Of a DNA stretch of 64,000 nt, positions 5,490 through 31,373 are shown piece by piece. Made by a program: the position numbers and the translations under genes. The notes under the pieces are model-generated. The model ran no database searches. It was not told where the DNA came from and saw nothing but the letters and a program-made list of their open reading frames with translations. The stretch is from Alphaproteobacteria bacterium (GTDB taxonomy: Bacteria; Pseudomonadota; Alphaproteobacteria; RF32; CAG-239). The stretch spans positions 75,398-139,397 of the forward strand of contig JAFUEX010000024.1 of the NCBI GenBank assembly GCA_017470165.1, read 5' to 3'. Positions within the stretch are counted from its first letter, which is position 1, and every line of letters starts with the position of its first letter.

Positions 5490-5566
5490 CGCGGGGTGGA
5501 GCAGTTAGTTAGCTCGCTGGTTTCATACTCCAGAGGTCGATGGTGCAAATCCATCTCCCGCAACCA
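5490..5566 (+). tRNA. tRNA-Met (anticodon CAT), initiator-like, encoded by the phage.
   Basis: 77 nt beginning CGCGGGGTGGAGCAG and ending TCCCGCAACCA, similar to E. coli tRNA-fMet. It has a C1:A72 mismatch, a TTCATAC anticodon loop, a perfect T-arm and an encoded CCA. Confidence 0.8.
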
Positions 5567-5660
5567 ACACAAGAAGATATTGTGGTATTTCTTCTTAAAA
5601 AAAGTGTTCCACACGTCGGTAGTTGTGAGCTCGATGTCGTTAATGTGAACTCTCATTTAT

Positions 5661-5745
5661 AGGACTGTAGCTCAATGGTAGAGCGTTCTGTGTGCACAGA
5701 TTAAACCGAGCAGTTTGTATGTGGGTTCGACTCCCGCCGGTCCGA
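5661..5745 (+). ncRNA. tRNA-like sequence with a non-canonical anticodon arm; possibly a tRNA pseudogene or decoy.
   Basis: Acceptor, D-arm (GCTC-AATGGTA-GAGC) and T-arm (GTGGG-TTCGACT-CCCGC) are canonical. The anticodon region is a perfect 14-nt palindrome (TCTGTGTGCACAGA), which gives a 4-nt loop. A long hairpin-forming variable region follows. Confidence 0.45.
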
Positions 5746-5883
5746 CCTATTACTTATGTCTGAGAGAACGCCGGTCGGATCGGCTTAAGACAAAACAGCT
5801 TAACCGAAAAGATTGGCAAGGAACACCGGATGGTTGCAAACGTCTGGTGTTTTCTTTTTGACTTTCAAGAAGAACGTGCTCCT

Positions 5884-5953
5884 GGCGGGAGGCTGCTGGG
5901 ACGGTTCCTCGCTCTGCGGTTCCCGTAGCCGGGCTGCGGGTGATTCGCTTTCG
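5884..5953. repeat. Left copy of a ~70-bp GC-rich direct repeat flanking the moron cassette.
   Basis: Shares the 18-nt exact core tgcggttcccgtagccgg and ~70% flanking identity with the copy at 7310-7380. Confidence 0.8.
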
Positions 5954-5999
5954 ATTGCGTATGTCATTCATGGCGCGCGCGGGCGGAGCCTTCCCAGAG

Positions 6000-6042
6000 C
6001 TTTTGCTTAAAGCAAAAGAAAGGTGTCGAATTCGACACCTTT
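6000..6042. terminator. Two adjacent perfect palindromes forming a probable (bidirectional) terminator.
   Basis: The palindromes are cttttgcttaaagcaaaag and aaaggtgtcgaattcgacaccttt. They lie just 3' of the minus-strand small ORF and are followed by T-rich sequence. Confidence 0.5.
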
Positions 6043-6047
6043 GGATG

Positions 6048-6197
6048 TTATTTGCCAATGTTATAGGCTTGGCATGCGGGCTGGTATCCGTGTTCGCACC
6101 GGATCTTGTTTTCCCAAACATCACCGACAATCAGCAAAAAATACATTGCCGCAAAAAATAAAATCATTGAAAAACCGTCTAAGATGTATTTAATCAT
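6048..6197 (-). CDS. 49-aa small membrane protein, paralogous to the ORF at 14018-14167.
   Basis: Translates to MIKYILDGFSMILFFAAMYFLLIVGDVWENKIRCEHGYQPACQAYNIGK, about 70% identical to the 14018 peptide. It is below the 60-aa cutoff of the ORF track. A terminator hairpin lies downstream. Confidence 0.6.
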   Translation of the reverse strand: MIKYILDGFSMILFFAAMYFLLIVGDVWENKIRCEHGYQPACQAYNIGK

Positions 6198-16685: not shown

Positions 16686-16946
16686 TTAGTGTTTTGTTGG
16701 AGATTCTGGTATAAAATACTTGCGCTTAGCTATTTTTGGTTCGACTTGAATTGCGACAATGTGATCTTTGGCCAAATGCCACCAGTTGAAGCCGTCGGTC
16801 ATGGTTATGCGCTTTTTGTCGGTATTGTCATATTCCGCAAGGATCCTGTTCACTTCCTCATCGTTCGCTTCATGGTCAATGCATTGCAGACCGGATAAGT
16901 AGATCCTTATTTTCATAGCTACCACCCTCTGTTGAACTCTGACCAA
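16686..16946 (-). CDS. Hypothetical phage protein.
   Basis: 86-aa ORF overlapping the primase gene end. Confidence 0.35.
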   Translation of the reverse strand: MVRVQQRVVAMKIRIYLSGLQCIDHEANDEEVNRILAEYDNTDKKRITMTDGFNWWHLAKDHIVAIQVEPKIAKRKYFIPESPTKH

Positions 16947-19414
16947 GTTTCTTCACGAAGTTTTATGCCTACATATGCTTTTTCTCCGCGTGGCGTTGTG
17001 CCCTTGGTTATATGCCTTTCATATAACCGGCGACCGAGCTTGTTTTTGCTGTATGGCGTATGACCGGCATCCTGACACCATTTTTTATAGTTTTCGTAGA
17101 GGCTGGCGCATGAGATTGTCGCGCCCACAGATTTAATTGTGTTTTCTTCAAGATAACTGCCAAGAACGTCCATTTCCGAGCGGTATTCCTGCGTTGCTTC
17201 GCGCACCGCATCAGGTGGGTTCAATCCTTGCCGTTGCCATTCTAAGCAACCCTTGACCGCCCACGCCAGAATGCCGGGTAGCTCATTTTTCAGCTTCGTA
17301 ATCAGGAGTTTGTCTTTGAATGGTCCGTCAATTGGCGCATCCGGATCTGTCTTGTCATAAAATTTCGCTTCAAATGGTATTAAAAGCAAACGCCGCCAGA
17401 TGCCGTCGTCGGTGCCGCGGATTTCAGGTTTATGGTTTGTGGCCAGCCACAGCTTAAAATGCGGCGTAAATTCGAACGGATTTTGATGTAAATTTCGCGC
17501 CGTTATTGTCGTGTCGCCGGTCGCCTCTTTGATTAGGCTTTCATCAAGAGCTCGGTCGGCTTTTGTTTCCGACGCGGTGACGAAACGGGCAGAGCGGAGC
17601 ATTGCAAGGAACGGGTTAGCATCATTTGCGCGACCTGTTTCCATAAACGCATCAGCTTTGGTTTTGACGTGATAATCATTCATTAAGGCTTGGACGGTGT
17701 CCAAAAATGTGGATTTACCATTTGAACCTTTACCATGGAGCACAAACATACATTGCTCTCTGGTATCGCCGGACAGACTGTAACCGATGGCACGTTGCAC
17801 AAAGCTGATCATGTCCGTGTCATTGTTTAAGATTTCCCGCAGAAATTTCTGCCATGCCGGACATTTTGCTTTTGGATCAAATGCAACCGTGCTTTGTTTT
17901 GTGCAATAAAAATCCGGGCTATGGTTCATGAGCTTGCCGGTCGTCAGGTCAATGACGCCATTTGCACAATTAAAGTAGAGCTGATCGCAATCCAGTTTTT
18001 TGATGTCTACGCATAAATCCGGCTGCGCTAATTTGAGCGCGTAGTTAATGCGTCCGCCTTCTTGGCTCTTTTTGCACCAGTTCTTTATGCCGGATTTTTG
18101 ATGTTCTTCGACATAGTCGGCTTCTTTGGCTATATCGAGGGCGGTTCTTTTGGCCATATTGATAACGCGCAGATCTGCGTGCTCGTGTTCCCATACACCT
18201 TTGCTGTAAATTATCCACCCCATACCCGGTGCAAATTTGACTATTTTACCCCAGCGGGTGACAATTCTTTGCGAATTGCCGACGTCGGTTCTCGGCCGAT
18301 ATGCCAATTTTGCGAATATGCTTTCTTCCGGATCCGGATATTCCGGCATCGTGCTGTTATAGTATTCTTCCGGTGGCTCAGGTTCTGCGTCGCGGGCATC
18401 TCGGACAGGTTGTGCTTCGTTGATCATCTTAACAACAGCATCGGCTCCTACTTCCTGCAGAAGCTGATTACTGTCCTTTATCGATAATGGCGGACGTGCG
18501 CACATTAGGTTTGTGAACCCACGGTCCAAAAATCCGGCCAGAATTTTATTCATGGTTTCGTCCGGCTTGCTTCCCGGTTCGTCGTTGTCGCGGACGACGA
18601 TTAAGGCGCGTCCTTTAGGCTCATCAATTTTGCTCATGAAGTTGATGCCCATTGTGCACCATACTTCCATTTTTGTTGTTTGCGCGAGTGTGAGTGCGTC
18701 TTCAGGTCCCTCGGTTAATAGGACAGGTCCATTCGGATCGCTTCCTTTGATTTTAATAGGACAACCGGCAGGAAAGCCGTTGGTGCGTTTCTTAACGGCA
18801 AGATTTGCCTTATGCCCTTGTGCGTCCAGATATACACTTTGAACCGCCCGGATGACGCCTTTATCATCGCGCGCGATACAGACCAGCGATCCGCCCCCAC
18901 GAGACTTGTTTGGCCGGAATTTAAACTGATTAAGTGGGGCACCTGTAATGCCTCGGCTTTTGAGGTATAATTGCGCAGGAGTGCCGCGTAAATCAACAAG
19001 CTCGGAGGTAATTTTATCAAGTTTTTTCTGTTTCTCCTCATCATATTCGTCTTGCTCCTGTTGCTGTTGCGCGGTGTCAACTGCCGGTCTATCGTATTTC
19101 GGGGTGTATTCTTTTGTTTCCCCGCCTTCCATCCCGAACATTCCAGCCAGTTTGCGGGCTGCTTCTACGCGATCAAGGCGGAACACTTTCGCGCATATTC
19201 CGATTGGATCGCCGACCGGCTCATCTGAAGAAAAATCCGAGCCTTTACCTGTTTTAATGTTAATCAACAAACTTTTTCCAGGGTGTCCGTCCCAATCTCC
19301 GCATTGGAATTCATTTCCAACCCTTTTTCCTTGCGGCAACCAATCCTTGAGTAATCCCTCAAGATTTGCCAAGGCTCTCGCGTTGACCGCTTCAAAATCA
19401 ACCATTCCTGCCAT
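16919..19414 (-). CDS. DNA primase/helicase (Toprim domain plus D5/P4-type SF3 helicase).
   Basis: Toprim-like segment (LLTEGPEDALTL...VRDNDEPG) and Walker A (LHGKGSNGKST). The C-terminal PriCT-like tail is shared with the Bro protein. 831 aa. Confidence 0.75.
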   Translation of the reverse strand: MAGMVDFEAVNARALANLEGLLKDWLPQGKRVGNEFQCGDWDGHPGKSLLINIKTGKGSDFSSDEPVGDPIGICAKVFRLDRVEAARKLAGMFGMEGGETKEYTPKYDRPAVDTAQQQQEQDEYDEEKQKKLDKITSELVDLRGTPAQLYLKSRGITGAPLNQFKFRPNKSRGGGSLVCIARDDKGVIRAVQSVYLDAQGHKANLAVKKRTNGFPAGCPIKIKGSDPNGPVLLTEGPEDALTLAQTTKMEVWCTMGINFMSKIDEPKGRALIVVRDNDEPGSKPDETMNKILAGFLDRGFTNLMCARPPLSIKDSNQLLQEVGADAVVKMINEAQPVRDARDAEPEPPEEYYNSTMPEYPDPEESIFAKLAYRPRTDVGNSQRIVTRWGKIVKFAPGMGWIIYSKGVWEHEHADLRVINMAKRTALDIAKEADYVEEHQKSGIKNWCKKSQEGGRINYALKLAQPDLCVDIKKLDCDQLYFNCANGVIDLTTGKLMNHSPDFYCTKQSTVAFDPKAKCPAWQKFLREILNNDTDMISFVQRAIGYSLSGDTREQCMFVLHGKGSNGKSTFLDTVQALMNDYHVKTKADAFMETGRANDANPFLAMLRSARFVTASETKADRALDESLIKEATGDTTITARNLHQNPFEFTPHFKLWLATNHKPEIRGTDDGIWRRLLLIPFEAKFYDKTDPDAPIDGPFKDKLLITKLKNELPGILAWAVKGCLEWQRQGLNPPDAVREATQEYRSEMDVLGSYLEENTIKSVGATISCASLYENYKKWCQDAGHTPYSKNKLGRRLYERHITKGTTPRGEKAYVGIKLREETWSEFNRGW

Positions 19415-20442: not shown

Positions 20443-20821
20443 TTGTATCTCCTTTTCTTGTCATGAGTATTTTTAATAAGGCATCAAATGCCTCGGCCGG
20501 TTTTGGCCTTTTCTTTCCGGTGGCTTGGATTAACCCTTTATATTTGAAGTAACCTTCCACCAGTAGAAACTCGTCTATTTGAATTGCGTCTGTCAGGTAT
20601 GCCAATGACTTCCGCCATTCGTTTTCGCAGTCTGCTTCGAACATTTTTACAGCTTCCTTCCGATCCCTGTTGCGATGCTCTTGCGCATATATGTTTTCCA
20701 CTTTTCCCGCAAACGCGTCACACCATGCTTGTCTTAAAATTCCGGCTATCAAGTTTTCCTCTGGTGTTTCGAAGAGGAACTTTGCGGGAAGGTGTGTTTT
20801 GTGTCTGCGGTGTTTTGTCAT
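20435..20821 (-). CDS. Hypothetical protein.
   Basis: 128-aa ORF. Confidence 0.35.
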   Translation of the reverse strand: MTKHRRHKTHLPAKFLFETPEENLIAGILRQAWCDAFAGKVENIYAQEHRNRDRKEAVKMFEADCENEWRKSLAYLTDAIQIDEFLLVEGYFKYKGLIQATGKKRPKPAEAFDALLKILMTRKGDTNE

Positions 20822-22260
20822 GTACGTCTACGCTCCTCTCTTGCTCTGCGGCCGTTGTAGACGTAACGCGCCCATGCGGCGGGGTTTTTGTATCCTTTGG
20901 CTTTCCCGAACTCTATGAGTTCTTCCATCGTTTGAGCCCTTCCGCGTTGGATCTTTTCGGCGCGTTTCTTGAATTCAACAAGTTCGCCTTCAACTTCCTC
21001 GATTTCTATTTTCGTTTTTGTGGCTGGCGTTCCACATACGGGGCAGACAGTAACTGTCGAGGGATATACCGCATAACATTGCAGGCATTGCCGACAGGCT
21101 AATCCGCCCCCACCAGAGGAGCGACCACGTCTTATTCTGCCGTCAAGCGTCCATTGATGCGGATCATCCGGCAGTCCATGCTCATTGCAGTTTCCGACAT
21201 GGTCAAGAATGATTGTTTCCGATTTTCCGGGATAAGGTCTTAATGCTCGTCCGACTTGCTGTAGATAAAGTCCGAGCGATTTTGTTTTTCTCAAAAGGAT
21301 TGCGGCTCCGACGACCGGGATATCGGTTCCCTCGCTGACGATTTCGCAGGATGTCAGAACATCCAGTCGACCATTGCCGAGATCATTGATTGCTTTGTTG
21401 CGCTGATAATCGTCCATATTACCGTCGACGCTGGCGGCTCTGTATCCGGCCGCATTGAAATTGTCGGCAACGTATTTTGCGTATTCAACCGTTGGGCAGA
21501 ATGCAATTGCCGGAACTCCTTCGCAGTATTTTCTATAGTGAGCTATAACGTCGCCGATGATTCGGGGCTTGTTTAATCTTTTTTCTTGCTCTTTCCGGTC
21601 AAAATCCCCGGCTATCGTTTTTAAATTATCAAAATCCGCTTGGATTGGCGGGCAATATACGCGCGGTTTTGTTAAATACCCACGCTCTATAAGTTCTGAG
21701 ATTGTCGGTCCAATTATGAGCTTGTCAAAAATTCCGCCGCAATGCTTTCCGAGCCCTTGGCCGTCGAGACGTTCAGGGGTTGCAGATACACCGAGGACTT
21801 TCGCGCCCGGATAGCTTTGCACGATTTTGAGCCACGTGCCTGCGACGCCGTGATGAGCTTCATCTATAAGTATCAAATCAAACTTTGGCAAATCAGCCAT
21901 GCGGCGGACTAGCGTTTGAACCGTCGCTATATAGATCTTGCTCTCATCGCGAAAAAAGCTCTTTTTAAATTTTTCTATTTGGATTTTTATTGCGTTTTGC
22001 ACCACTTTAGCAGGTGCGACTATTGAATGCGTAATTCCGAACCTTGCCAATGCTTTTGCCGTTTGGACGATAAGCTCTTGGCGGTGCACTAAGACGACGG
22101 TGCAGGTTCCTTTTGCTGAAGCGTTTTCACATATTTTTGCCAAGATGACGGTTTTCCCCGCTCCGGTTGGGGCTGTCAAAAATGGTGCTTTGAACCCCTC
22201 TCTGAATGCTTCCCGGACGTCGTTTACCGCTTTTTGTTGATAGTCACGTAGCTCTATCAT
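20818..22260 (-). CDS. DEAD/DEAH-box (SF2) helicase.
   Basis: DYQQKAV, APTGAGKT and ILIDEAHH motifs, with CxxC...CxxC near the C-terminus. The start was chosen at MIELRDYQ and the longer ORF reaches 22398. Confidence 0.7.
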   Translation of the reverse strand: MIELRDYQQKAVNDVREAFREGFKAPFLTAPTGAGKTVILAKICENASAKGTCTVVLVHRQELIVQTAKALARFGITHSIVAPAKVVQNAIKIQIEKFKKSFFRDESKIYIATVQTLVRRMADLPKFDLILIDEAHHGVAGTWLKIVQSYPGAKVLGVSATPERLDGQGLGKHCGGIFDKLIIGPTISELIERGYLTKPRVYCPPIQADFDNLKTIAGDFDRKEQEKRLNKPRIIGDVIAHYRKYCEGVPAIAFCPTVEYAKYVADNFNAAGYRAASVDGNMDDYQRNKAINDLGNGRLDVLTSCEIVSEGTDIPVVGAAILLRKTKSLGLYLQQVGRALRPYPGKSETIILDHVGNCNEHGLPDDPHQWTLDGRIRRGRSSGGGGLACRQCLQCYAVYPSTVTVCPVCGTPATKTKIEIEEVEGELVEFKKRAEKIQRGRAQTMEELIEFGKAKGYKNPAAWARYVYNGRRAREERRRT

Positions 22261-22563
22261 GTACAACCCCTGTCTTTTAACCCTGCCTTTGTTGCTCAAT
22301 TGTGGCGGGCGGCACAGGGTTATTGTGTTTTTGTGCTGATCAAGCACTTCCGCCCGTCGAAATAGACTATAAAAGTATTTTTTGACTTTTGCAAGCACTT
22401 TTTTTGATTTTAATAAACTTTTTTTGCTGTTATTATACTTTATCCTTATTTTTCGGGGTTTTATATGTGTGTAAAGTCAAAAAAATTTCCGTTTTATGAC
22501 TTTTTCATTGAAAAAATCAAAAAATAGAGTTATATTGAGTCAAACTGTTAAAAGGAGAAAAAT

Positions 22564-23133
22564 ATGACACGTAATACATTAAACCAAGGTCCGAAGCGCG
22601 ATGTCAGCCCTCTGGGTAGAAAATTGCACCAGCTTATTCGTGCTGCGAACTATGATTATATTAAAGATTTTGAAAAAGAATCAGGGGTTCGCCCCGATTC
22701 GATTCGTCGCGTGATCGGCGGATATACCAAAAGTTTGCCATTTTCCGACCTACAAAAAGTTGCAACAACTCTTAAAATATCCGTTCAAGAGCTTATGACC
22801 GGATCGGCTGATGGCGAAGCGATTGCCACTTGCAATCTCGTTCCGGGCGCAAAAGAGCCATGTTGGTATCAGGTACATTCTGACGAAATGGCTCCAACAC
22901 TCAAAAGTGGCGACAATGTCCTCGTAGATACAGGCATCAGGACAGTTATTGAGGCCGGTATTTATTTGCTTGGAACACCATCCAGCACGGCATTCCGACG
23001 TATTTCTCACAACCCTGTTACTGGCAAATTGCGGGTTGAGGCCGACAATAAGACTTATTCATATGTTGAGGAAGTTGAGGCCGAAAAATTATCTATTAGA
23101 GGTCGTGTAATCGGAATCTTCCACCGAATTTAA
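22564..23133 (+). CDS. CI/LexA-like phage repressor (HTH plus S24 peptidase).
   Basis: N-terminal HTH and a C-terminal S24-like segment (SDEMAPTLKSGDNVLVD). Transcribed divergently from the early leftward operon. Confidence 0.65.
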   Translation: MTRNTLNQGPKRDVSPLGRKLHQLIRAANYDYIKDFEKESGVRPDSIRRVIGGYTKSLPFSDLQKVATTLKISVQELMTGSADGEAIATCNLVPGAKEPCWYQVHSDEMAPTLKSGDNVLVDTGIRTVIEAGIYLLGTPSSTAFRRISHNPVTGKLRVEADNKTYSYVEEVEAEKLSIRGRVIGIFHRI

Positions 23134-23292: not shown

Positions 23293-24120
23293 ATGAGTAC
23301 GATTATTCGATGTTCTTCTCTCTCGCACTATTCGGATTGCACCCGAAGAGCAGCGGCAAAAATGTTTTTCAAGGAAATTTCGGAAGAGTATGGATTTGAC
23401 CTGACGCTGGTTAACACCTCAGCTGGTGCTGCCGTCGGTACGGCCATGCATAAAGCTTTGGAAGCTGCGATTGTTCTGCGCTCCAAAGGCTTGCCGTATT
23501 CCGACGAAATTAAAAAGGTTGCTGAAACATCCATTCTTGAAACGGTCCGTGAGGGTATTGTCTGGGATGATACGACGTTTGATAAGGCGACCGGTGTAAT
23601 GCAGGCCGTCCGTCAGACTCACTCAATCTTGGACGTTATGCCGGATTTACAGGAGATTGCCATTGAGGGCGAATTTACCGCCGATCTTGGCGACGACTTT
23701 ATTTTGTCCGGACATATCGACATCCGGGGACGTGAGGGAGAGTTGAATACGATTCAAGATTTTAAATCCGGTACGACGGCGCGCGTTAATATTCCGCAGT
23801 ACGGCGGTTATTCTCTACTTACCAGAACGGCCGGTTATAAAGTCGATCTACTCCGTGAAATATACGCCAAACGTGTCGGCAAAACAAAAGCCCAACCGGC
23901 TCCGGTCATTAAGGACTACGAACCGGCTATGGCTGAGAATTTCGCGTGGGCGGTTATAAAAAAGATCAAATCGGATATGCAGACTTTTCGCAAGACTGGA
24001 TCTCCGTGGGTTTGGTTGCCGAACCCGAACTCTATGATGTGCTCTCCGCATTATTGTCCTGCGTATGGCACAAAATTTTGCAAATGCCGTTCATTAAAGA
24101 AAGGAGAAAATAATGGCTAA
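23293..24120 (+). CDS. PD-(D/E)xK exonuclease, Cas4/RecB-like, with a C-terminal Cys cluster.
   Basis: HIDIRGREGELNTIQDFKSG is a D...E-x-K-type motif. The C-terminal CSPHYCPAYGTKFCKC is an Fe-S-like cluster. Confidence 0.5.
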   Translation: MSTIIRCSSLSHYSDCTRRAAAKMFFKEISEEYGFDLTLVNTSAGAAVGTAMHKALEAAIVLRSKGLPYSDEIKKVAETSILETVREGIVWDDTTFDKATGVMQAVRQTHSILDVMPDLQEIAIEGEFTADLGDDFILSGHIDIRGREGELNTIQDFKSGTTARVNIPQYGGYSLLTRTAGYKVDLLREIYAKRVGKTKAQPAPVIKDYEPAMAENFAWAVIKKIKSDMQTFRKTGSPWVWLPNPNSMMCSPHYCPAYGTKFCKCRSLKKGENNG

Positions 24121-24940
24121 CGAAATTGTAACAAAAGAACCGCAAAATGCCGTTTCTACGGATATTCTGTCAGACTTTACGGTTTTTGAAAACGCTCAGA
24201 GAATTGGCAAGATACTGACGCAGTCCGCAATCATTCCATCCAATTTCCAAAATAATCTGCCGAATGTCATGGTTGCTTTGGAGATTTCATGCAGGAATAA
24301 ATTGTCGCCTATCGTCGTGATGCAGAATTTAAATGTTATTCAAGGGCGTCCTTCCTGGTCCTCTAAATTCATTATCGCCGCATTAAGCACGAGCCGTGTG
24401 TTAAATCTTCACTATGAGCTTGTCGAAGATGGAGAGATTGAAGTTCCGGGCGGTTTTAATGGCGCAAAAAAGAAAATTAAAAACTTAAAATGTCGCGCAA
24501 TTGCCAATGATCGCAAAACAGGCGAAGAGCGCATCGGTCCATGGGTAACCATGCAAATGGCCATTGCCGAGGGCTGGTATAGTAAAAGCGGGAGTAAATG
24601 GCAGACAATGCCTGAGGTTATGATCCGCTACCGTGCTGCGACATTCTTCGCGAATGTTTATTATCCGGATTTGTCAGTCGGTATCGATGTCGCCGATGAT
24701 GACGCTTCAGCTCCGGCCAATGTTCCGGCTGTAAATCGTGAAACAGTAACGACCGGTGAAATTGTTGAGCCAGCTCCTGAAGCCCCGGCAAAACCAAAAC
24801 GCAAAAAAGAAGAACCAAAAACGATTGAGGCAGAGGCCGAGCCTGTTACCGTAGAAGCTGAACCGGTTGAAGATAAACCGGCTCAGGTTGTGGCTCCGCA
24901 GACAGACAATGAAGATGCATGGGGGGCTTTCGATGATTAA
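24113..24940 (+). CDS. RecT-like single-strand annealing protein.
   Basis: GPWVT...MPEVMIRYRAATFF resembles the RecT C-terminal motif (GPWVTHW...KTAIRRLFK). The tail is acidic/Pro-rich. It is coupled to the upstream nuclease. Confidence 0.5.
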   Translation: MANEIVTKEPQNAVSTDILSDFTVFENAQRIGKILTQSAIIPSNFQNNLPNVMVALEISCRNKLSPIVVMQNLNVIQGRPSWSSKFIIAALSTSRVLNLHYELVEDGEIEVPGGFNGAKKKIKNLKCRAIANDRKTGEERIGPWVTMQMAIAEGWYSKSGSKWQTMPEVMIRYRAATFFANVYYPDLSVGIDVADDDASAPANVPAVNRETVTTGEIVEPAPEAPAKPKRKKEEPKTIEAEAEPVTVEAEPVEDKPAQVVAPQTDNEDAWGAFDD

Positions 24941-26585
24941 AGCAACAGTTAAAGATTTTATGGGTTGCTCATCCGCCGAAATTGTCGCGGACAAAGTGGC
25001 TCTTTTGCTTGGTTTAAACGGTCAAGGGAAGACAAGCTCGTTACTTCCTATTTCAGCGGCTCTGCGCGGTGGTGTTCCTTTGGGTTTGCAAAAAACAAAA
25101 GCCGGAATGCTGGTTAAGACCGGCGCAGGTGTTTCTTCTATCGTTTTAGAGAATGATACATCAAAGGTTTCGGTTACTTGGCCAAAATGCGAACGACGCG
25201 CCGAAGGTGCAGACGCTCCTGAAGCTTCAGATATTGCCGTCGGTGCGATTAAATTTCCATTCATGCCGGATAAAGACAAAGTTGAGCTGTTACGTGGACT
25301 TTTGAAGTGTGAGCCTAAAAAAGAGGATTTATTCTCCGCTTTGCAGTCAAAAGGTTTGTCTGAGAAAGTTTGCGAGATTGTCTGGCACAGCATTGAGGTT
25401 GAAGGCTGGGATGCTTCCCTTGATCGTGCCAAAGAAAAAGGCCGGAGCTTAAAATCTCAATGGGCATTAAATGCCGGGGAAGCATACGGCGAAAAAAAAG
25501 GCGCGAACTGGTTCCCGGTTGGCTGGGAGAATGACCTTGAGGGATTGTCTGCAGAAGCTTTGGAGACAGAAATCACAACCGCGCGGGCGGAGCTTGAGTT
25601 CAAAATTGCCAATCAGGCTGTTTCTGAGGATGAGTTGGCTCGCCTTCAGGAGATCGCTTCTAAAATTGAAGAATTGCGAGCGGCTCATAATTCAGCCGTC
25701 GAGGCTTTTAATCAAAAAGGCCTTGAACTAAAGAATGCGCAGGATGCCCGCAAAAAATTGCCGGAATTACCTCGTTATGATTTGGTTTGTCCTCATTGCG
25801 GCAAGCCGGTCGCGTATGAGAATGGCAAACTCGTTGAAGTAAAGCAAACAATATCTGATGATGAACGCGCAGAAATGGAGCAAAAAATCCTTGATGCAGA
25901 TAATGCTGTCAGTAAAGCTACGCGCGAATTGTCCACATCCAAGACAGAGGTTGCCCTTGCCGAGCAGAAAGTAAAAGAGGCGGAGAAGGCTTCTGAAGAA
26001 TATCTGGCCAAAAAGGACAAGACTGTTTCGCAGGTAGAAGTTGACGAGGCTCGCGAGGCCGTTCGTAAATCTGAGGCTCGCCGTGATGCCTTTAATAAGT
26101 ATCACGAGGGCGTTCGTATCCATAATAATATCATTGAAAATCAAAAAATAATTGATGTTTTGGATCCGGAAGGCATTCGTCGTGAATCGCTTCAAAAAGG
26201 CCTTGATAATTTTAACGGCGATCTTGAGGCTCTTTGTCGTGTTGCTTGCTGGCAAAACGTCACGGTTGACGGAGATATGTCTGTTAATTACGCCGGTCGT
26301 CCGATCGTTCTTTGCTCGGAGAGTGAAAAGTTCCGCGCATTCGTAACCCTGCAATGCCTGATTGCTGATCTTGATGGTTCTTCGGCGGTGGTTATTGATG
26401 CGGCTGATATTCTCGACAGCAAATCGCGCGCCGGTTTATTCAAGCTCTTAGCTTCTCAGGACTATTGTTCATTTGTCGGTATGACGGTCAGCAGGCCGGA
26501 TAAAGTGCCAAGCCTTCAAAAGCTCGGCATTGGCCGGAAGTATTGGGTTGAGAGTGGTATTTGTGAGGAGATCTACAATGGCTGA
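24933..26585 (+). CDS. SbcC/Rad50-like SMC-type ATPase with a zinc hook.
   Basis: Walker A (GLNGQGKTS), a long coiled-coil-like middle region with CPHCGKPV (CxxC hook), and a C-terminal Walker B/D-loop-like VVIDAADILD. Confidence 0.55.
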   Translation: MIKATVKDFMGCSSAEIVADKVALLLGLNGQGKTSSLLPISAALRGGVPLGLQKTKAGMLVKTGAGVSSIVLENDTSKVSVTWPKCERRAEGADAPEASDIAVGAIKFPFMPDKDKVELLRGLLKCEPKKEDLFSALQSKGLSEKVCEIVWHSIEVEGWDASLDRAKEKGRSLKSQWALNAGEAYGEKKGANWFPVGWENDLEGLSAEALETEITTARAELEFKIANQAVSEDELARLQEIASKIEELRAAHNSAVEAFNQKGLELKNAQDARKKLPELPRYDLVCPHCGKPVAYENGKLVEVKQTISDDERAEMEQKILDADNAVSKATRELSTSKTEVALAEQKVKEAEKASEEYLAKKDKTVSQVEVDEAREAVRKSEARRDAFNKYHEGVRIHNNIIENQKIIDVLDPEGIRRESLQKGLDNFNGDLEALCRVACWQNVTVDGDMSVNYAGRPIVLCSESEKFRAFVTLQCLIADLDGSSAVVIDAADILDSKSRAGLFKLLASQDYCSFVGMTVSRPDKVPSLQKLGIGRKYWVESGICEEIYNG

Positions 26586-27354: not shown

Positions 27355-27499
27355 TTTATTTTGTCGCCATTTTTGGCTTCATGTGTTAACCCTCGGCGGT
27401 TTTTGTTCAACAAAACACGGAATGTATGAAATTCCGGGCAATATTTATATTGACTACTGTCCGAAGTGCCATTCTATACGGGGGCGCCATGAAAGATAA
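27335..27499 (+). CDS. 54-aa zinc-ribbon protein.
   Basis: MLQKIHSLFCRHFW...CPKCHSIRGRHER. It is embedded in the longer 27260-27499 track ORF in the same frame. Confidence 0.3.
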   Translation: MLQKIHSLFCRHFWLHVLTLGGFCSTKHGMYEIPGNIYIDYCPKCHSIRGRHER

Positions 27500-28118
27500 G
27501 GAAATCACAGCCGAAATCATCCGCAGATTGCGCTTAATGCCGGAACATAGGAGAGATATTTATTTCCCTGAATTCCGCTGGTGCGCAGGTGTGGCTGGTT
27601 CGCGCCGTGCAGACGCATTCTTTATTCTTGCGCGTCCGCCTTATTTTTCCGTTACCTATGAAGTTAAAGCAAATCATTGGGATTTTGAGCGGGATCTGCA
27701 GAACGCAGAAAAGCATAGCAAAGCTCGGCAATACTCAAACATCTTCTATTATGCGGCTCCGGCCGGTGCTATTCGTCCGGAAGAGTTACCGGAGTGGGCT
27801 GGCTTGGTTGAGTTTGATTTATCAATTCTGGCCGATGAATACACACAAGGTGCAATGGTTGTCAAGCAAGCCCCGCTTCATGACAGAGAGGATCCGGGTT
27901 GGGATTTGATCGCAAGCATTGCAAAACGGCTTCAGGATCCTGCGTTTCGTTTCGAGGCTCACGGTATGCACCTGATTTCAAATGATCAGCTCATGCAGTT
28001 GAAGTCTTTAATCGGTCAGCAGGTCCAAGCAAATAAAATTCTGCAGGCCGGATCCTCGGCAATGATGTCGGCTTTGGCTATTGTCAGCAAAATTTTTAAC
28101 CGAAAGGACAAGCTATGA
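27489..28118 (+). CDS. MmcB-like PD-(D/E)xK family protein.
   Basis: AGSRRADAFFI...YEVKANHWDFERD...NIFYYAAP resembles the MmcB/DUF1052 pattern. Confidence 0.4.
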   Translation: MKDKEITAEIIRRLRLMPEHRRDIYFPEFRWCAGVAGSRRADAFFILARPPYFSVTYEVKANHWDFERDLQNAEKHSKARQYSNIFYYAAPAGAIRPEELPEWAGLVEFDLSILADEYTQGAMVVKQAPLHDREDPGWDLIASIAKRLQDPAFRFEAHGMHLISNDQLMQLKSLIGQQVQANKILQAGSSAMMSALAIVSKIFNRKDKL

Positions 28119-29495
28119 CAGAGATTGTTTTTGTTGACTTGTTCTCCGGCATCGGCGGGTTTGCGGAAGGTTTCCGCCGGGCTGGATTAAAATTCAGATA
28201 TCACGCTTTTTCCGAAATAGATAAAAACGCGATTAGTATTTATAAAAAACACTTTCCTGAAGCAAAGGAGTTAGGCGATGTCCGAACAATTAGAGATTTT
28301 TCAACCATCAGAAATCAACGGGGGGGGGTGCCGCTGGTCGTCACTTTCGGATTTCCTTGTCAAGATCTATCAGTTGCTGGCAAAAGGCGAGGACTTGAAG
28401 GCTCTCGAAGCGGGTTATTCTTTGAAGCAATGCGGGTTATCCGAGAATTGCAACCCGATGTTTTTATCTTTGAAAACGTCAAAGGTCTTCTCTCAAGTAA
28501 CAAAGGACAAGACTTTGTCCGCTGTCTGCAGGAAATTGCCGACCTTGGGAATTATGACGGGCAATGGCAGCTTGTCAATACTAGCTGGATATTACCCCAA
28601 AATCGAGAGCGGATTTACTTTGTCGGCACTCTTAGAGGACAAACCAGACGCCAAGTATTTCCTCTCGTCGACAGCGGTCAGTCGGATTCTCGGTTACAAG
28701 GACAACGAGCTTGCTGCCTTACAGCAAGATATTTCCAGTCAACCGGCGGCGGAACGTATTTTATTGAACGTAAACAGCATAAAGAAGGCAACGATGAAAA
28801 ATCCGCAAGGAACAAGAATTAACACGATTGACGGCAATTCTGTCGCTTTGCAGTCATGCGCTGGCGGCATGGGTGCAAAAACAGGACTGTATTGCGTTCC
28901 GCGTGGCAAGCGCGACGGCGGTTTTAAGGACGGTGACACTTGTCCGACAATAACCGCGAACGCCTTTCAGCAAAATAATTTCATCGTTCCCGTTTTAACG
29001 CCTGATCGCGTAAATAAAAGGCAAAATGGACGCCGCTTCAAAGAAGCCGGAGAACCTTCATTTACCCTGACAACGCAAGATAGACACGGCATTTATGACG
29101 GCATTGATATCCGTCGTCTGACACCTCTTGAATGTGAACGTCTACAGGGTTTTCCGGACGGTTGGACGGAGACCGGCGAAAATGGGCAGAGAATGTCGGA
29201 CACGGCACGTTATAAGGCACTCGGCAACGCGGTCAGCGTGTGCTTTCCTGAATTGATCGCAAAATCTTTGTTTATGGAGAATGAAATGACAGCAGACGTT
29301 ATTCAGTTCCCTCAAAAGAAAAAGGAGAACTTGAACGCGGTCTATGTCCTTTTGGATACGGTCCGCAAAATGCACGATGAGGACGGCTATCGCTTTGCTT
29401 CCTCGGAGTTGAAAGAAAACAGCCAAGGCAAGGTGGTCTTGACTTTGGTTATGGATAAACCAGATCCGGACGACCTTCCGGACATAACAGCATAG
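28115..29495 (+). pseudogene. C5-cytosine DNA methyltransferase disrupted by a single frameshift near 28640.
   Basis: Frame A has motif I (FSGIGGF), motif IV (GFPCQDLSVAGK), motif VI (ENVKGL) and motif VIII (QNRERIYFVG). Frame B continues with AKYFLS, motif IX (RRLTPLECERLQGFPDGW) and motif X (YKALGNAVSV). A G9 tract lies at 28320-28328. Confidence 0.7.
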
Positions 29496-29504
29496 GAGAA
29501 TAAA

Positions 29505-29792
29505 ATGGCAAATCAAAGTGTGGGCAATGGCGCCCTTTTCAAAAACGATAAGCAGGGCGTTGATACGCGTCCGGATTATACCGGAACTGCAAAAATATGG
29601 GACAAGGAGTTTTTCTTGTCAGCTTGGATTAAAAAAAGCCAGTCTGGCAAAACTTATATGTCGCTTTCGTTCAAAGTAAACGAGAAAGGATCGCAGGCTT
29701 CAGGTAGTCAAGCTACTGCTCAACCTACTGGTCAACCTGCTGACCAAGCTCCGGCTTCTTCAGCCCCGGTTGATGATGATATTCCGTTCTAG
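29505..29792 (+). CDS. Short SSB-like protein with a C-terminal DDDIPF tip.
   Basis: 95 aa with an N-terminal ~60-aa globular part. The middle is a Q/P/A/S-rich low-complexity linker. The protein ends in the exact SSB acidic tip DDDIPF. Confidence 0.5.
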   Translation: MANQSVGNGALFKNDKQGVDTRPDYTGTAKIWDKEFFLSAWIKKSQSGKTYMSLSFKVNEKGSQASGSQATAQPTGQPADQAPASSAPVDDDIPF

Positions 29793-30147: not shown

Positions 30148-31164
30148 ATGAAAAAAACAGCAGAATTTGTGTCATTAGGGCATCCGGATAAAACAGCGGA
30201 TTTTATTTCGAGTTATGTGCTTGACCGTTTAATTGAGCAGGATCCTCACGTAAAATATGCGGTTGAGGTCATGGTTAAAGATAACGAGGTTATTTTGGGC
30301 GGTGAAGTCAAGGGTAACGTTGAGTTCTCTCTAGCCACCCTTCAAACTTGGATTTATGATGCCTTGGCAAAAATAGGCTATACCGAGGACTATTCAAAGC
30401 GGTGGGGTGTCAATGCCATCAATCCCTTAAAGGTTAACGTCACGAATTTAATCGGTAAACAGTCAGGAGATATCAACCAAGGCGTTGAAGCTGACGGCTG
30501 GGGTGATCAAGGTGTCTTTGTTGGCTACGCTTGCAAAAGTGAAGGCAAAGTCAGCCGAGAGCTCTTCCTTGCGCGTAAATTAAACCACGCTCTCTATGAA
30601 ATGGCCAAAACGAGCGAAAATTTTGGAATTGATATTAAAACGCAAATAACAATGAATGACATCGGCGGTGTCGAAACGGCGATTGTTGCGATTCCCATGC
30701 TCAAAGAGATTGATCTGCGCGACTTTGTCACTTCTGTTCTTGGCGAGGAGCCGGAGAATATCATTATAAACGGGACTGGTCGTTATGTTATGCATTCTTC
30801 TATTGCTGATTGCGGGGTTACCGGTCGTAAGCTCGCTTGCGACTTCTATTCTACAACTTGCGCCGTCGGTGGTGGTTCGCCATGGACAAAGGACGCCAGC
30901 AAGGCAGACGTTTCATTGAATATCCTTGCTCGCAAATTGGCTGTTGAAAATTTAGACGGTGCGCATGAATGCTGGGTTTATCTTTCTTCGTGCATTGGTC
31001 GCGCCGATTTGCCGTCCGTTGAGGTTGTTCGCAAGACTGGCATGGCGATCGGCTATAGAGATGTCAAGATTGGCAAACCGTCAGAAATTATCGAGGAGCT
31101 TGGGTTGAATAAGCCGGTATTCGCCGACTTGTGTGCTCGTGGTATTACCGAGGTTTATAAATAA
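30148..31164 (+). CDS. S-adenosylmethionine synthetase-like protein (short MetK).
   Basis: The N-terminal GHPDKTADFISSYVLD matches the MetK GHPDK signature. 338 aa against ~384 aa for bacterial MetK. Confidence 0.55.
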   Translation: MKKTAEFVSLGHPDKTADFISSYVLDRLIEQDPHVKYAVEVMVKDNEVILGGEVKGNVEFSLATLQTWIYDALAKIGYTEDYSKRWGVNAINPLKVNVTNLIGKQSGDINQGVEADGWGDQGVFVGYACKSEGKVSRELFLARKLNHALYEMAKTSENFGIDIKTQITMNDIGGVETAIVAIPMLKEIDLRDFVTSVLGEEPENIIINGTGRYVMHSSIADCGVTGRKLACDFYSTTCAVGGGSPWTKDASKADVSLNILARKLAVENLDGAHECWVYLSSCIGRADLPSVEVVRKTGMAIGYRDVKIGKPSEIIEELGLNKPVFADLCARGITEVYK

Positions 31165-31231: not shown

Positions 31232-31317
31232 GTTAAAAATTCGCATCTGCTACCTATTTGCTACCTGCATTTTTTAACTTCATTTTAAAGTTTTGATTTT
31301 ATTGTGTTTTTGGCACT

Positions 31318-31373
31318 ACCTCGTCAGGCTCATAACCTGAAGGTCGGAGGTTCAAATCCTCCCCCCGCAACCA
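31318..31373 (+). tRNA. 3' fragment of a host tRNA-Met(CAT) (fMet-like); candidate att core.
   Basis: CTCGTCAGGCTCATAACCTGAAGGTCGGAGGTTCAAATCCTCCCCCCGCAACCA matches E. coli tRNA-fMet from the D-stem onward. The 5' acceptor and D-arm are absent. Confidence 0.6.

What the first reader, a model, noticed from the sequence alone, without database searches (positions are those of the whole stretch)
29505..29792. Mini-SSB: a 95-aa protein ending in the canonical SSB tip DDDIPF.
The protein has a ~60-aa N-terminal domain, then a Q/P/A/S-rich disordered linker, then the exact C-terminal hexapeptide used by bacterial SSB to recruit RecO, ExoI, PriA, RecQ and others.

Its N-terminal domain is too short for a full OB fold. 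It could titrate SSB-interactome partners or deliver them to phage DNA, as a hub-mimic or anti-defence protein.
Basis: partly seen in the sequence, partly recalled or inferred. Interest (0 to 1): 0.6.

Follow-up and report, generated by a model that had tools for sequence, protein, structure and literature searches.

The report
Small non-OB phage SSB-like protein
This prophage gene belongs to a very large, untested phage family that joins a tiny non-OB beta-sheet domain to the standard bacterial SSB recruiting tail, and it sits where phages normally keep their single-stranded-DNA-binding protein.

Summary
A 95-aa ORF at 29505..29792 (+) has a good RBS, a conserved ~58-aa N-domain, an A/S/Q/P-rich linker and a terminal DDDIPF.

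It is not an oddity. An N-domain-only profile finds 7,493 cluster representatives. About 76% of the 145 newly returned top hits carry an acidic-[ILVA]PF tip. PHROGs (phrog_18154) and many GenBank phage records already call members "ssDNA-binding protein". No paper characterising the family turned up.

The N-domain is not an OB fold. AlphaFold2 gives three confident strands. In natural tandem two-copy relatives, each copy forms four strands at pLDDT ~90. No PDB match is significant. The nearest Pfam family is DUF736, and only weakly.

In other phages the gene directly follows ERF, Sak or YqaJ recombination genes, or a DNA polymerase. Here it shares an operon with a PD-(D/E)XK exonuclease and a RecT-like protein. 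No canonical SSB was found in the window or in 50 related loci.

Best reading: the prophage's own compact SSB analogue, working as a dimer and recruiting RecT and host SSB partners through its tip. DNA binding is inferred, not shown. The decoy or anti-defence reading is not supported by context. It is a new member of a known but uncharacterised kind.

The parts
29494..29499 (+). Shine-Dalgarno AGGAGA, 5 nt upstream of the ATG
   Evidence: Read directly from the sequence.
29505..29792 (+). Mini-SSB coding sequence (95 aa plus stop)
   Evidence: Full-length match to phrog_18154 'single strand DNA binding protein', E=4.9e-11. 173 homologues.
29526..29678 (+). Conserved N-terminal beta domain, residues 8-58. 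Invariant residues are G9, L11, F12, K13, N14, G27 and W41.
   Evidence: Alignments A1 and A2. AF2 strands 25-31, 34-44 and 50-58 at pLDDT about 90. Tandem homologue model with 4 strands per repeat. Weak DUF736 relation, profile positions 26-77. The N-domain (residues 1-60) has pI 9.4.
29679..29771 (+). Disordered A/S/Q/P/G-rich linker, residues 59-89
   Evidence: Composition. pLDDT 51-58. 11% identity to distant homologues, against 54% for the domain.
29772..29789 (+). SSB-Ct tip DDDIPF, residues 90-95
   Evidence: DDDIPF is the commonest ending in the family, 71 of 265 proteins. It is the only part of E. coli SSB that matches the window.
23293..24120 (+). PD-(D/E)XK exonuclease, same operon (context)
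   Evidence: Pfam PDDEXK_1 E=3.2e-5. phrog_69 exonuclease E=7.4e-10.
24113..24940 (+). RecT-like single-strand annealing protein (context, probable partner)
   Evidence: phrog_561 RecT-like E=1.6e-53. The same synteny is seen in relatives L003-L005.
24867..26585 (+). SbcC/SMC-like ATPase (context)
   Evidence: phrog_77 E=1.7e-8. Weak LmuB-like match in PADLOC, E=2e-5.
28115..29495 (+). C5 cytosine DNA methylase immediately upstream, split over two reading frames (context)
   Evidence: Pfam DNA_methylase on both ORFs. PADLOC orphan MTase.
30148..31164 (+). Phage-encoded SAM synthetase, last gene before the prophage end (context)
   Evidence: Pfam S-AdoMet_synt N, M and C domains. Conserved in relatives.
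31311..31362 (+). Partial tRNA (3' part), probable att remnant marking the right end of the prophage
   Evidence: Rfam tRNA model positions 8-63, 27.8 bits, E=0.0016. Sequence.

Best explanation
The gene encodes the prophage's own compact SSB analogue. Its basic N-terminal beta domain of about 55 aa is related to DUF736 and is not an OB fold.

Inferred steps:
- The N-domain pairs with a second copy to form an eight-stranded unit that binds ssDNA.
- It coats the ssDNA made by the neighbouring PD-(D/E)XK exonuclease and by phage replication (primase and helicase lie on the other strand).
- The flexible linker presents the host-identical DDDIPF tip, which recruits the phage RecT-like annealing protein and host SSB-interacting proteins onto phage ssDNA.

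Shown here: gene reality, domain layout, family size, tip conservation, non-OB prediction, gene neighbourhood, and no detectable canonical SSB nearby.

Inferred only: ssDNA binding, dimerisation and the partners of the tip.
For: 1. Family and labels. The query gives a full-length hit to phrog_18154, and an N-domain hit to phrog_7364; both are labelled 'single strand DNA binding protein'. Many cultured phages annotate members as SSB.

2. Gene position. The gene lies directly after ERF in L008, L009, L011 and Microcystis phage Mae-JY35. It follows Sak in L006 and L042, and ERF-YqaJ in L007. Of 20 upstream neighbours sampled from GTDB genomes, 3 are ERF, 4 YqaJ and 1 Sak. In the Z-genome phages DMU1 and PMBT28 the order is helicase, DNA polymerase, this gene, PurZ. 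In the window it shares an operon with an exonuclease and a RecT-like gene, and that synteny is kept in relatives.

3. No detectable canonical SSB. tblastn with E. coli SSB matches only the tail in the window. The E. coli OB domain gives no hit at E<=1 in all 50 loci (512 kb), including the complete DMU1 genome. DMU1 has its own primase, helicases and polymerase, and this is its only annotated SSB.

4. Features of the N-domain. It is basic (pI 9.4; family mean 8.4) with an acidic tail (pI 4.05). F12, K13 and W41 are invariant and Y25 nearly so.

5. Dimer inference. About a fifth of the top 150 profile hits are natural tandem two-domain proteins with the same tip. The invariant GxLFKN segment is unstructured in the monomer model (pLDDT 49-64). 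In the tandem model it is strand 1 of each repeat (pLDDT ~90, pTM 0.66).

6. Literature on tip function. RecT proteins recognise the 7 C-terminal residues of SSB (bioRxiv 10.1101/2020.04.14.041095). The last six residues of HK620 SSB are needed to stimulate its neighbouring annealase Sak4 (PMC5928155).

7. Indirect functional hint. Co-expressing PMBT28 helicase and 'SSB' raised dZ incorporation by DpoZ (PMC12944874 and bioRxiv 10.1101/2025.10.22.683976). The gene after dpoZ in PMBT28 is a family member ending PPMDFDDDIPF. I infer, but did not confirm, that this is the 'SSB' used.
Against: - No experiment shows ssDNA binding for any family member. The SSB labels in PHROGs and GenBank are untested annotations.
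- The fold has no significant match to any solved ssDNA-binding structure. The best Foldseek E-values are 0.09-0.2, and sequence and profile searches of the PDB are empty.
- The PC4-like resemblance is not significant (hhalign probability 7-8%).
- In the window and its closest relatives the gene is several genes downstream of RecT. It lies between a cytosine methylase and a SAM synthetase, not beside the annealase.
- Dimerisation is inferred from tandem relatives and was not modelled directly.
- The canonical-SSB search used only the E. coli OB domain with tblastn, which could miss divergent OB-fold or gp2.5/gp32-type SSBs.
Confidence: 0.6

Rival explanations
1. SSB-tip decoy or hub mimic. The N-domain only oligomerises or anchors the protein and does not bind ssDNA. 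The multivalent DDDIPF tips titrate host SSB-interacting proteins (ExoI, RecQ, RecO, PriA, chi), or blunt defence systems that monitor SSB or ssDNA.
For: The N-domain is not an OB fold and has no significant structural match to a known DNA binder. The tip is the best-conserved feature after the domain. In the window the immediate neighbours are DNA-modification genes, a C5 methylase and a SAM synthetase, which are counter-restriction-type functions. One relative shares an early operon with an Acb2/Tad1-like gene. Phage SSBs are known triggers of several defence systems (titles and abstracts).
Against: The strong, repeated adjacency to SSAPs, exonucleases and DNA polymerases argues for an on-DNA role. 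So does the apparent lack of any other SSB in a self-replicating phage genome. A pure decoy would not need a basic domain with invariant aromatic and lysine residues across thousands of lineages. There is no PADLOC match.
Confidence: 0.15
2. SSAP accessory or adaptor. The N-domain binds the cognate annealing protein, or host-SSB-coated ssDNA, rather than naked ssDNA. It supplies the annealase in trans with an SSB-like tail that couples it to host replisome and repair proteins.
For: Many family members have translationally coupled (overlapping stop/start) gene pairs with ERF or Sak. The protein is very small.
Against: The same domain partners with unrelated SSAP families (ERF, Sak/Rad52-like, RecT-like) and also with DNA polymerases. 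This is easier to explain by a shared substrate, ssDNA, than by a shared protein surface. The weak relatedness to DUF736 of conjugative elements, which transfer ssDNA, points the same way.
Confidence: 0.12
3. Degenerate remnant of a canonical ssb gene: an OB domain truncated by deletion, with only the tail retained.
For: The tail resembles that of bacterial SSB. E. coli SSB residues 143-178 align to the linker and tip.
Against: The N-domain is conserved over thousands of clusters with a stable length; the median for single-domain members is 89 aa. It has no similarity to OB-fold SSB. It relates to DUF736 instead.
Confidence: 0.02

Closest known systems
Bacterial SSB (E. coli SSB, Pfam PF00436)
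   Same: Both have a disordered low-complexity linker followed by the identical C-terminal hexapeptide DDDIPF. Both have a basic DNA-binding-type head and an acidic tail. From established knowledge, the tip recruits RecO, ExoI, PriA, RecQ, chi and others.
   Different: There is no OB fold. The head is about 55 aa of beta strands rather than about 112 aa. There is no PF00436 match and no sequence similarity outside the tail. The oligomeric state is probably a dimer rather than a tetramer (inferred).
Phage SSBs encoded next to annealases, such as HK620 SSB with Sak4 (PMC5928155)
   Same: The gene lies next to, or in an operon with, a single-strand annealing protein. The C-terminal six residues resemble the host SSB tip. 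In HK620 those residues are required to stimulate the annealase.
   Different: The paper describes HK620 SSB as a bona fide SSB of about 95 kDa apparent mass. From my own knowledge it is a canonical OB-fold SSB. This protein is 10 kDa and non-OB.
PHROG 18154 / 7364 small phage 'SSB' proteins (Acinetobacter DMU1 and SH-Ab 15497, Salmonella PMBT28, Chaseviridae such as Escherichia phage flopper and Erwinia phage Y2)
   Same: These belong to the same family. They have the same N-domain motif (GxLF.N...PDY.G...W...S[LM]S), a linker and a DDDIPF-type tip.
   Different: They share only about 37-50% identity in the N-domain. Their linkers differ (Q-rich in flopper) and so do their modules (replication in DMU1 and PMBT28; a recombination operon here). 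None has published biochemistry in the library I searched.
DUF736 (Pfam PF05284), a backbone gene of Mesorhizobium ICEs (PMC8627217)
   Same: There is weak but recurrent profile similarity over DUF736 positions 26-77: 44 of 66 family members at E<=1, and one above the gathering score. RefSeq names a tandem, tip-bearing plasmid relative 'DUF736 domain-containing protein'. Both occur on mobile elements that have ssDNA intermediates.
   Different: The query itself does not hit PF05284. The match covers only the middle half of the profile. From memory, unverified, classical ICE DUF736 proteins lack the linker and SSB tip.
PC4-like / Whirly / Pur-alpha ssDNA-binding beta-sheet folds (including the T5 PC4-like SSB and YdbC; review PMC7549692)
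   Same: Both are small beta-beta-beta-beta units that act as dimers or tandem repeats. The top, non-significant, Foldseek hits of the monomer model are PC4, Pur-alpha and MoSub1. Two family members weakly hit Pfam Whirly.
   Different: No C-terminal helix is predicted. The similarity is not significant: Foldseek E 0.2-1 with TM 0.27-0.38, and hhalign probability 7-8%. The tandem model does not retrieve PC4-like structures.
T7 gp2.5
   Same: It is a phage SSB whose acidic C-terminal tail ends in an aromatic residue and mediates partner binding. It functions as a dimer (established knowledge; PMC10359462 is listed).
   Different: gp2.5 is a 232-aa OB-fold protein with a different tail sequence.

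Membership tests
Canonical bacterial/phage SSB (PF00436, OB fold) | N-terminal OB-fold ssDNA-binding domain matching PF00436 | tested here: not met
   There is no Pfam or NCBIfam hit even at E<=10. tblastn with E. coli SSB matches only residues 143-178, the tail. The AF2 models are not OB folds, and Foldseek returns no SSB or OB structure.
Canonical bacterial/phage SSB (PF00436, OB fold) | Intrinsically disordered linker followed by an acidic tip ending in IPF | tested here: met
   The sequence ends ...APVDDDIPF. The linker is rich in A, S, Q, P and G, with pLDDT 51-58.
Canonical bacterial/phage SSB (PF00436, OB fold) | High-affinity ssDNA binding and homo-oligomerisation | not testable with these tools
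   This needs EMSA or anisotropy and SEC-MALS. The only indirect support is the tandem relatives.
PHROG 18154 small phage 'single strand DNA binding protein' | Full-length match to the family HMM | tested here: met
   E=4.9e-11, residues 8-95 against profile positions 7-105 of 105.
PHROG 18154 small phage 'single strand DNA binding protein' | Location in a phage replication or recombination module | tested here: met
   In the window it shares an operon with an exonuclease and a RecT-like gene. Relatives lie next to ERF, Sak, YqaJ or a DNA polymerase.
DUF736 (PF05284) | Score at or above the Pfam gathering threshold (22.1 bits) | tested here: not met
   The query has no hit. Forty-four of 66 relatives hit at E<=1, mostly below threshold, and only P0110 reaches 23.8 bits.
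DUF736 (PF05284) | Coverage of the whole 99-position domain | tested here: not met
   The matches cover only profile positions about 26-77.
PC4-like / Whirly ssDNA-binding fold | Beta-beta-beta-beta-alpha unit that pairs into a two-unit domain | tested here: inconclusive
   There are four strands per repeat and tandem or dimer organisation, but no helix is predicted.
PC4-like / Whirly ssDNA-binding fold | Significant structural or profile similarity to PC4, Whirly or PurA | tested here: not met
Known anti-phage defence or anti-defence components (PADLOC) | Match to a PADLOC model | tested here: not met
   There are 0 families at E<=1e-3. PADLOC holds defence models, not anti-defence models, so this excludes only the former.

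The most novel reading that the evidence does not exclude
The ~55-aa domain is a previously unrecognised, non-OB ssDNA-binding fold. It is a four-stranded beta unit that becomes functional only as a homodimer or tandem repeat, and it may share ancestry with DUF736 of conjugative elements. That would make this one of the largest uncharacterised classes of SSB: thousands of phage lineages that re-created the SSB hub architecture (binder, linker, DDDIPF) on a different scaffold. A possible added benefit is escaping host defences that sense OB-fold phage SSBs.
Probability: 0.4. Interest if true: 0.65.

Novelty: new member of a known kind. Interest (0 to 1): 0.42.

Why it matters
If the family binds ssDNA, it would be a minimal SSB of about 10 kDa built on a scaffold with no solved relative. 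It shows that the SSB 'hub' design, a DNA binder plus a flexible linker plus the host tip, has been assembled independently of the OB fold.

Practical consequences:
- These proteins are natural partners of ERF, Sak and RecT recombinases. They could improve the portability of recombineering, as the RecT-SSB tip work suggests.
- They are candidate accessory factors for Z-genome replication (PMBT28).
- They may bear on how SSB-sensing defence systems tell phage SSBs apart.

For this window specifically, the gene is an ordinary member of that family inside a prophage early operon.

Tried and rejected
- **PDB by sequence:** the single sequence and the family profile both gave no hits at E<=10.
- **PC4-like hypothesis:** it was prompted by weak Foldseek hits to PC4, Pur-alpha and MoSub1 and by two weak Pfam Whirly hits. 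I tested it with hhalign against human PC4 and against a PC4 alignment. Probability was 7-8%, so it is rejected as evidence and kept only as a lead. The PC4 alignment was of low diversity, mostly vertebrate.
- **Canonical SSB elsewhere:** none was found in the window or the related loci with this limited search.
- **Defence-system membership:** PADLOC gave no hit for the protein.
- **Literature:** searches for DUF736, DDIPF with phage, non-OB phage SSBs and Chaseviridae SSB found no paper characterising this family. The DRT10-trigger 'SSB-like protein' Bas52_0087 is a different protein with two OB folds.
- **Truncated canonical ssb:** rejected because the N-domain is conserved in its own right.
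- **Model coordinates:** the AF2 models could not be read in the Python sandbox. I therefore could not check whether the tandem model is a closed barrel or an open sheet.

Full report
**1. The observation**

An AGGAGA ribosome-binding site lies 5 nt upstream. The gene starts 9 nt after the stop of the upstream methylase gene.

The protein has a conserved head (residues ~8-58). A linker follows, with composition A7 S5 Q5 P4 G3 T2. The last six residues are DDDIPF. It is the only stop-to-stop segment of 40 aa or more in the six-frame translation of the window with an acidic-x-P[FWYLM] end. When E. coli SSB is searched against the window, only its tail (residues 143-178) aligns, and it aligns to this ORF.

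**2. It is a member of a very large family**

A word-indexed search returned 173 homologues of 75-112 aa. All 120 listed carry a terminal or near-terminal acidic-[ILV]PF motif.

That search can be biased by the tip itself, so I built a profile of the N-domain alone (A2, 63 positions). I ran it against 1.84 billion cluster representatives. It gave 7,493 hits at E<=1e-3 and 3,146 at E<=1e-10.

Among the 145 new proteins returned, 110 (76%) carry the tip. Most of the rest looked to me like truncated fragments or odd gene calls.

Conservation by region follows the classical SSB pattern. Identity to the query in distant homologues is 54% for the domain, 11% for the linker and 69% for the tip. Invariant residues are G9, L11, F12, K13, N14, G27 and W41. 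Nearly invariant residues include D15, P23, D24, Y25, G48, M52, S53 and L54.

In the GTDB scan, members occur in Alpha-, Beta- and Gammaproteobacteria, Nitrospira, Bacteroidota, Planctomycetota, Verrucomicrobiota, CPR phyla and one Firmicute. The closest relatives come from rumen and gut Alphaproteobacteria MAGs.

**3. What databases already say**

Pfam and NCBIfam give nothing for the query. PHROGs gives a full-length match to phrog_18154 (E=4.9e-11). It also gives an N-domain match to phrog_7364. Both are labelled 'single strand DNA binding protein'.

tblastn against cultured phages finds members annotated 'ssDNA binding protein':
- Acinetobacter phages DMU1 and SH-Ab 15497
- Klebsiella phages
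- Salmonella phage PMBT28 (annotated 'DNA-binding protein')
- Burkholderia phage Bm1
- many Chaseviridae, including Erwinia phage Y2, Pectobacterium phage PM1 and Escherichia phages flopper and 4HA13

Their sequences show the same layout. DMU1 is 100 aa and ends DLDDDLPF. PMBT28 is 113 aa and ends PPMDFDDDIPF. Flopper is 124 aa, with a Q-rich linker, and ends DFDDDIPF.

So the family is known by annotation. I found no paper that characterises it.

**4. The fold**

AlphaFold2 with a 66-sequence alignment gives three confident antiparallel strands: 25-31, 34-44 and 50-58, at pLDDT about 90. The tail is disordered. The N-terminal 20 residues have low confidence (pLDDT 49-64) even though they hold the invariant GxLFKN motif.

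About one in five of the top profile hits are natural tandem proteins. They are 120-207 aa, have two copies of the domain, and mostly carry the same tip.

A model of one tandem protein (P0150, 141 aa) is confident: mean pLDDT 82.5, pTM 0.66, and ~90 across both repeats. In it, each repeat has four strands, and the GxLFKN segment forms strand 1. I infer that the single-domain proteins need a second copy, in a homodimer, to complete the fold.

Neither model has a significant PDB match. The best Foldseek E-values are 0.2 for the monomer and 0.09 for the tandem, with TM at most 0.51 (avidin permutant), and no OB-fold or SSB entry appears. Sequence and profile searches of the PDB are empty.

The domain is not OB by these tests.

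The monomer's top weak hits are PC4, Pur-alpha and MoSub1, which are ssDNA-binding beta-sheet folds that work as dimers or tandem repeats. Two family members weakly hit Pfam Whirly. However, hhalign against PC4 gives only 7-8% probability, and no helix is predicted. I keep this only as a lead.

**5. Relation to DUF736**

Forty-four of 66 family members hit Pfam DUF736 at E<=1 (best 2.1e-5). They always align to profile positions ~26-77 of 99, and one member exceeds the gathering score.

RefSeq names a 165-aa tandem plasmid protein 'DUF736 domain-containing protein'. That protein ends EDEDIPF.

DUF736 is a backbone gene of Mesorhizobium ICEs (PMC8627217). These are elements that transfer as ssDNA (my own knowledge).

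The query itself fails the DUF736 membership test. I call it DUF736-related, not a member.

**6. Genomic context**

Window 1..~31,300 is a prophage. It contains:
- major head, protease, portal and large terminase genes
- a ParB-methylase and an anti-repressor
- primase-helicase (16919..19414, minus strand) and an SF2 helicase (20818..22398, minus strand)
- a CI-like repressor (22564..23133)

A rightward operon follows:
- PD-(D/E)XK exonuclease (23293..24120)
- RecT-like annealase (24113..24940, phrog_561 E=1.6e-53)
- SbcC-like ATPase
- a zinc-finger protein
- an MmcB-like 'DNA repair' protein
- a C5 methylase
- the mini-SSB
- a PHROG-625 protein of unknown function
- a SAM synthetase

A partial tRNA at 31311..31362 marks the probable att end. 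The same synteny is kept in a 68%-identical relative.

In more distant relatives the gene sits in the classical ssb slot:

| Upstream gene(s) | Loci |
|---|---|
| ERF (overlapping stop/start in L008, L009, L011) | L008, L009, L011, Microcystis phage Mae-JY35 |
| Sak | L006, L042 |
| ERF then YqaJ | L007 |
| Helicase then DpoZ-type polymerase, with PurZ downstream | DMU1, PMBT28 |

Among 20 upstream neighbours sampled from GTDB genomes, 3 are ERF, 4 YqaJ, 1 Sak and 2 C5 methylase. One each is an IS605 OrfB, a relaxase-like protein and a lysozyme, and 7 are unassigned.

No E. coli-type OB-fold SSB was detectable in any of the 50 fetched loci (512 kb). That set includes the complete DMU1 genome, which encodes its own replisome. 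This tblastn search could miss divergent SSB types.

**7. Mechanism**

The best-supported reading is that this is the prophage's SSB analogue.

Shown here:
- architecture and conservation
- the non-OB prediction
- tandem relatives
- the recombination/replication neighbourhood
- no detectable alternative SSB

Inferred:
- The basic head (pI 9.4), with its invariant Phe, Tyr, Trp and Lys residues, binds ssDNA as a dimer.
- The tip recruits the RecT-like protein and host SSB partners.

The inference about the tip rests on published work. RecTs recognise the last 7 residues of SSB (bioRxiv 10.1101/2020.04.14.041095). The last six residues of HK620 SSB are required to stimulate its neighbouring annealase (PMC5928155).

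There is one indirect functional hint for the family. Adding PMBT28 helicase and 'SSB' raised DpoZ-dependent dZ incorporation in E. coli (PMC12944874 and bioRxiv 10.1101/2025.10.22.683976). The gene after dpoZ in PMBT28 is a family member. I did not confirm that this gene is the one that was cloned.

**8. Rivals**

- A pure tip decoy or anti-defence protein is possible. It fits less well with the SSAP and polymerase adjacency, with the conserved basic/aromatic head, and with the apparent absence of another SSB in self-replicating phages. PADLOC gives no match.
- An SSAP adaptor is less likely. The domain partners with unrelated annealase families and also with polymerases.
- A truncated canonical ssb is excluded by the family-wide conservation of the head.

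**9. Verdict**

It is probably wrong in emphasis, because the protein is more likely an SSB analogue in a recombination module than a decoy.
- The instance is a new member of a known, database-annotated family.
- The family has no experimental or structural characterisation that I could find, and no solved relative.
- Interest is moderate.

Noticed in passing
window 28115..29495: The C5 cytosine methylase just upstream is split over two overlapping reading frames. ORF 28115..28822 matches Pfam DNA_methylase positions 3-167, and ORF 28278..29495 matches positions 233-322. This implies a frameshift near 28620-28650. Relatives have a single 337-398 aa ORF. It could be a pseudogene, a sequencing error or a programmed shift.
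   Followed up: partly
window 31311..31362: A partial tRNA lies about 150 nt after the phage SAM synthetase. It matches Rfam tRNA model positions 8-63 at 27.8 bits, has a CAT anticodon loop and lacks the 5' acceptor arm. It is probably the att remnant at the right end of the prophage.
   Followed up: partly
window 5490..5747: The prophage carries a tRNA-Met (5490..5566) and a second tRNA (5661..5747). Rfam scores the second at 40.1 bits, but ARAGORN cannot assign its anticodon ('tg', tRNA-???). Both lie between the portal gene and a 126-aa ORF (5750..6130, minus strand).
   Followed up: no
window 30148..31164: The prophage encodes a compact (338 aa) SAM synthetase as the last gene of the early operon, next to DNA methylase genes. 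The arrangement (C5 methylase, mini-SSB, small ORF, N6/N4 methylase, SAM synthetase) is conserved in relatives L003-L005. It may secure the SAM supply for phage methylation or counter-defence.
   Followed up: no
L001/L050 (Acinetobacter phage DMU1) 31372..31674; L051 (Salmonella phage PMBT28) 4495..4836: In 2-aminoadenine (Z-genome) phages the family member sits between the DpoZ-type DNA polymerase and PurZ (annotated adenylosuccinate synthetase). The PMBT28 protein ends PPMDFDDDIPF, which by my recollection of E. coli SSB is identical to its last 11 residues.
   Followed up: partly
L049 (Caballeronia plasmid pSBC1_4) 4776..5273: A 165-aa tandem two-domain relative on a 281-kb plasmid ends EDEDIPF. 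RefSeq names it 'DUF736 domain-containing protein'. The family is therefore not restricted to phages.
   Followed up: no
window 27389..27489: ARAGORN calls a 101-nt 'tRNA-His (atg)' that overlaps the start of the MmcB-like gene. Rfam does not confirm it at gathering threshold, so it is probably a false positive.
   Followed up: partly
window 24867..26585: A 572-aa SbcC/SMC-like ATPase lies between the RecT-like gene and the zinc-finger gene. It matches phrog_77 at E=1.7e-8 and weakly matches PADLOC LmuB at E=2e-5. It is conserved in relatives as a 550-aa ORF, and its role in the recombination module is unknown.
   Followed up: no
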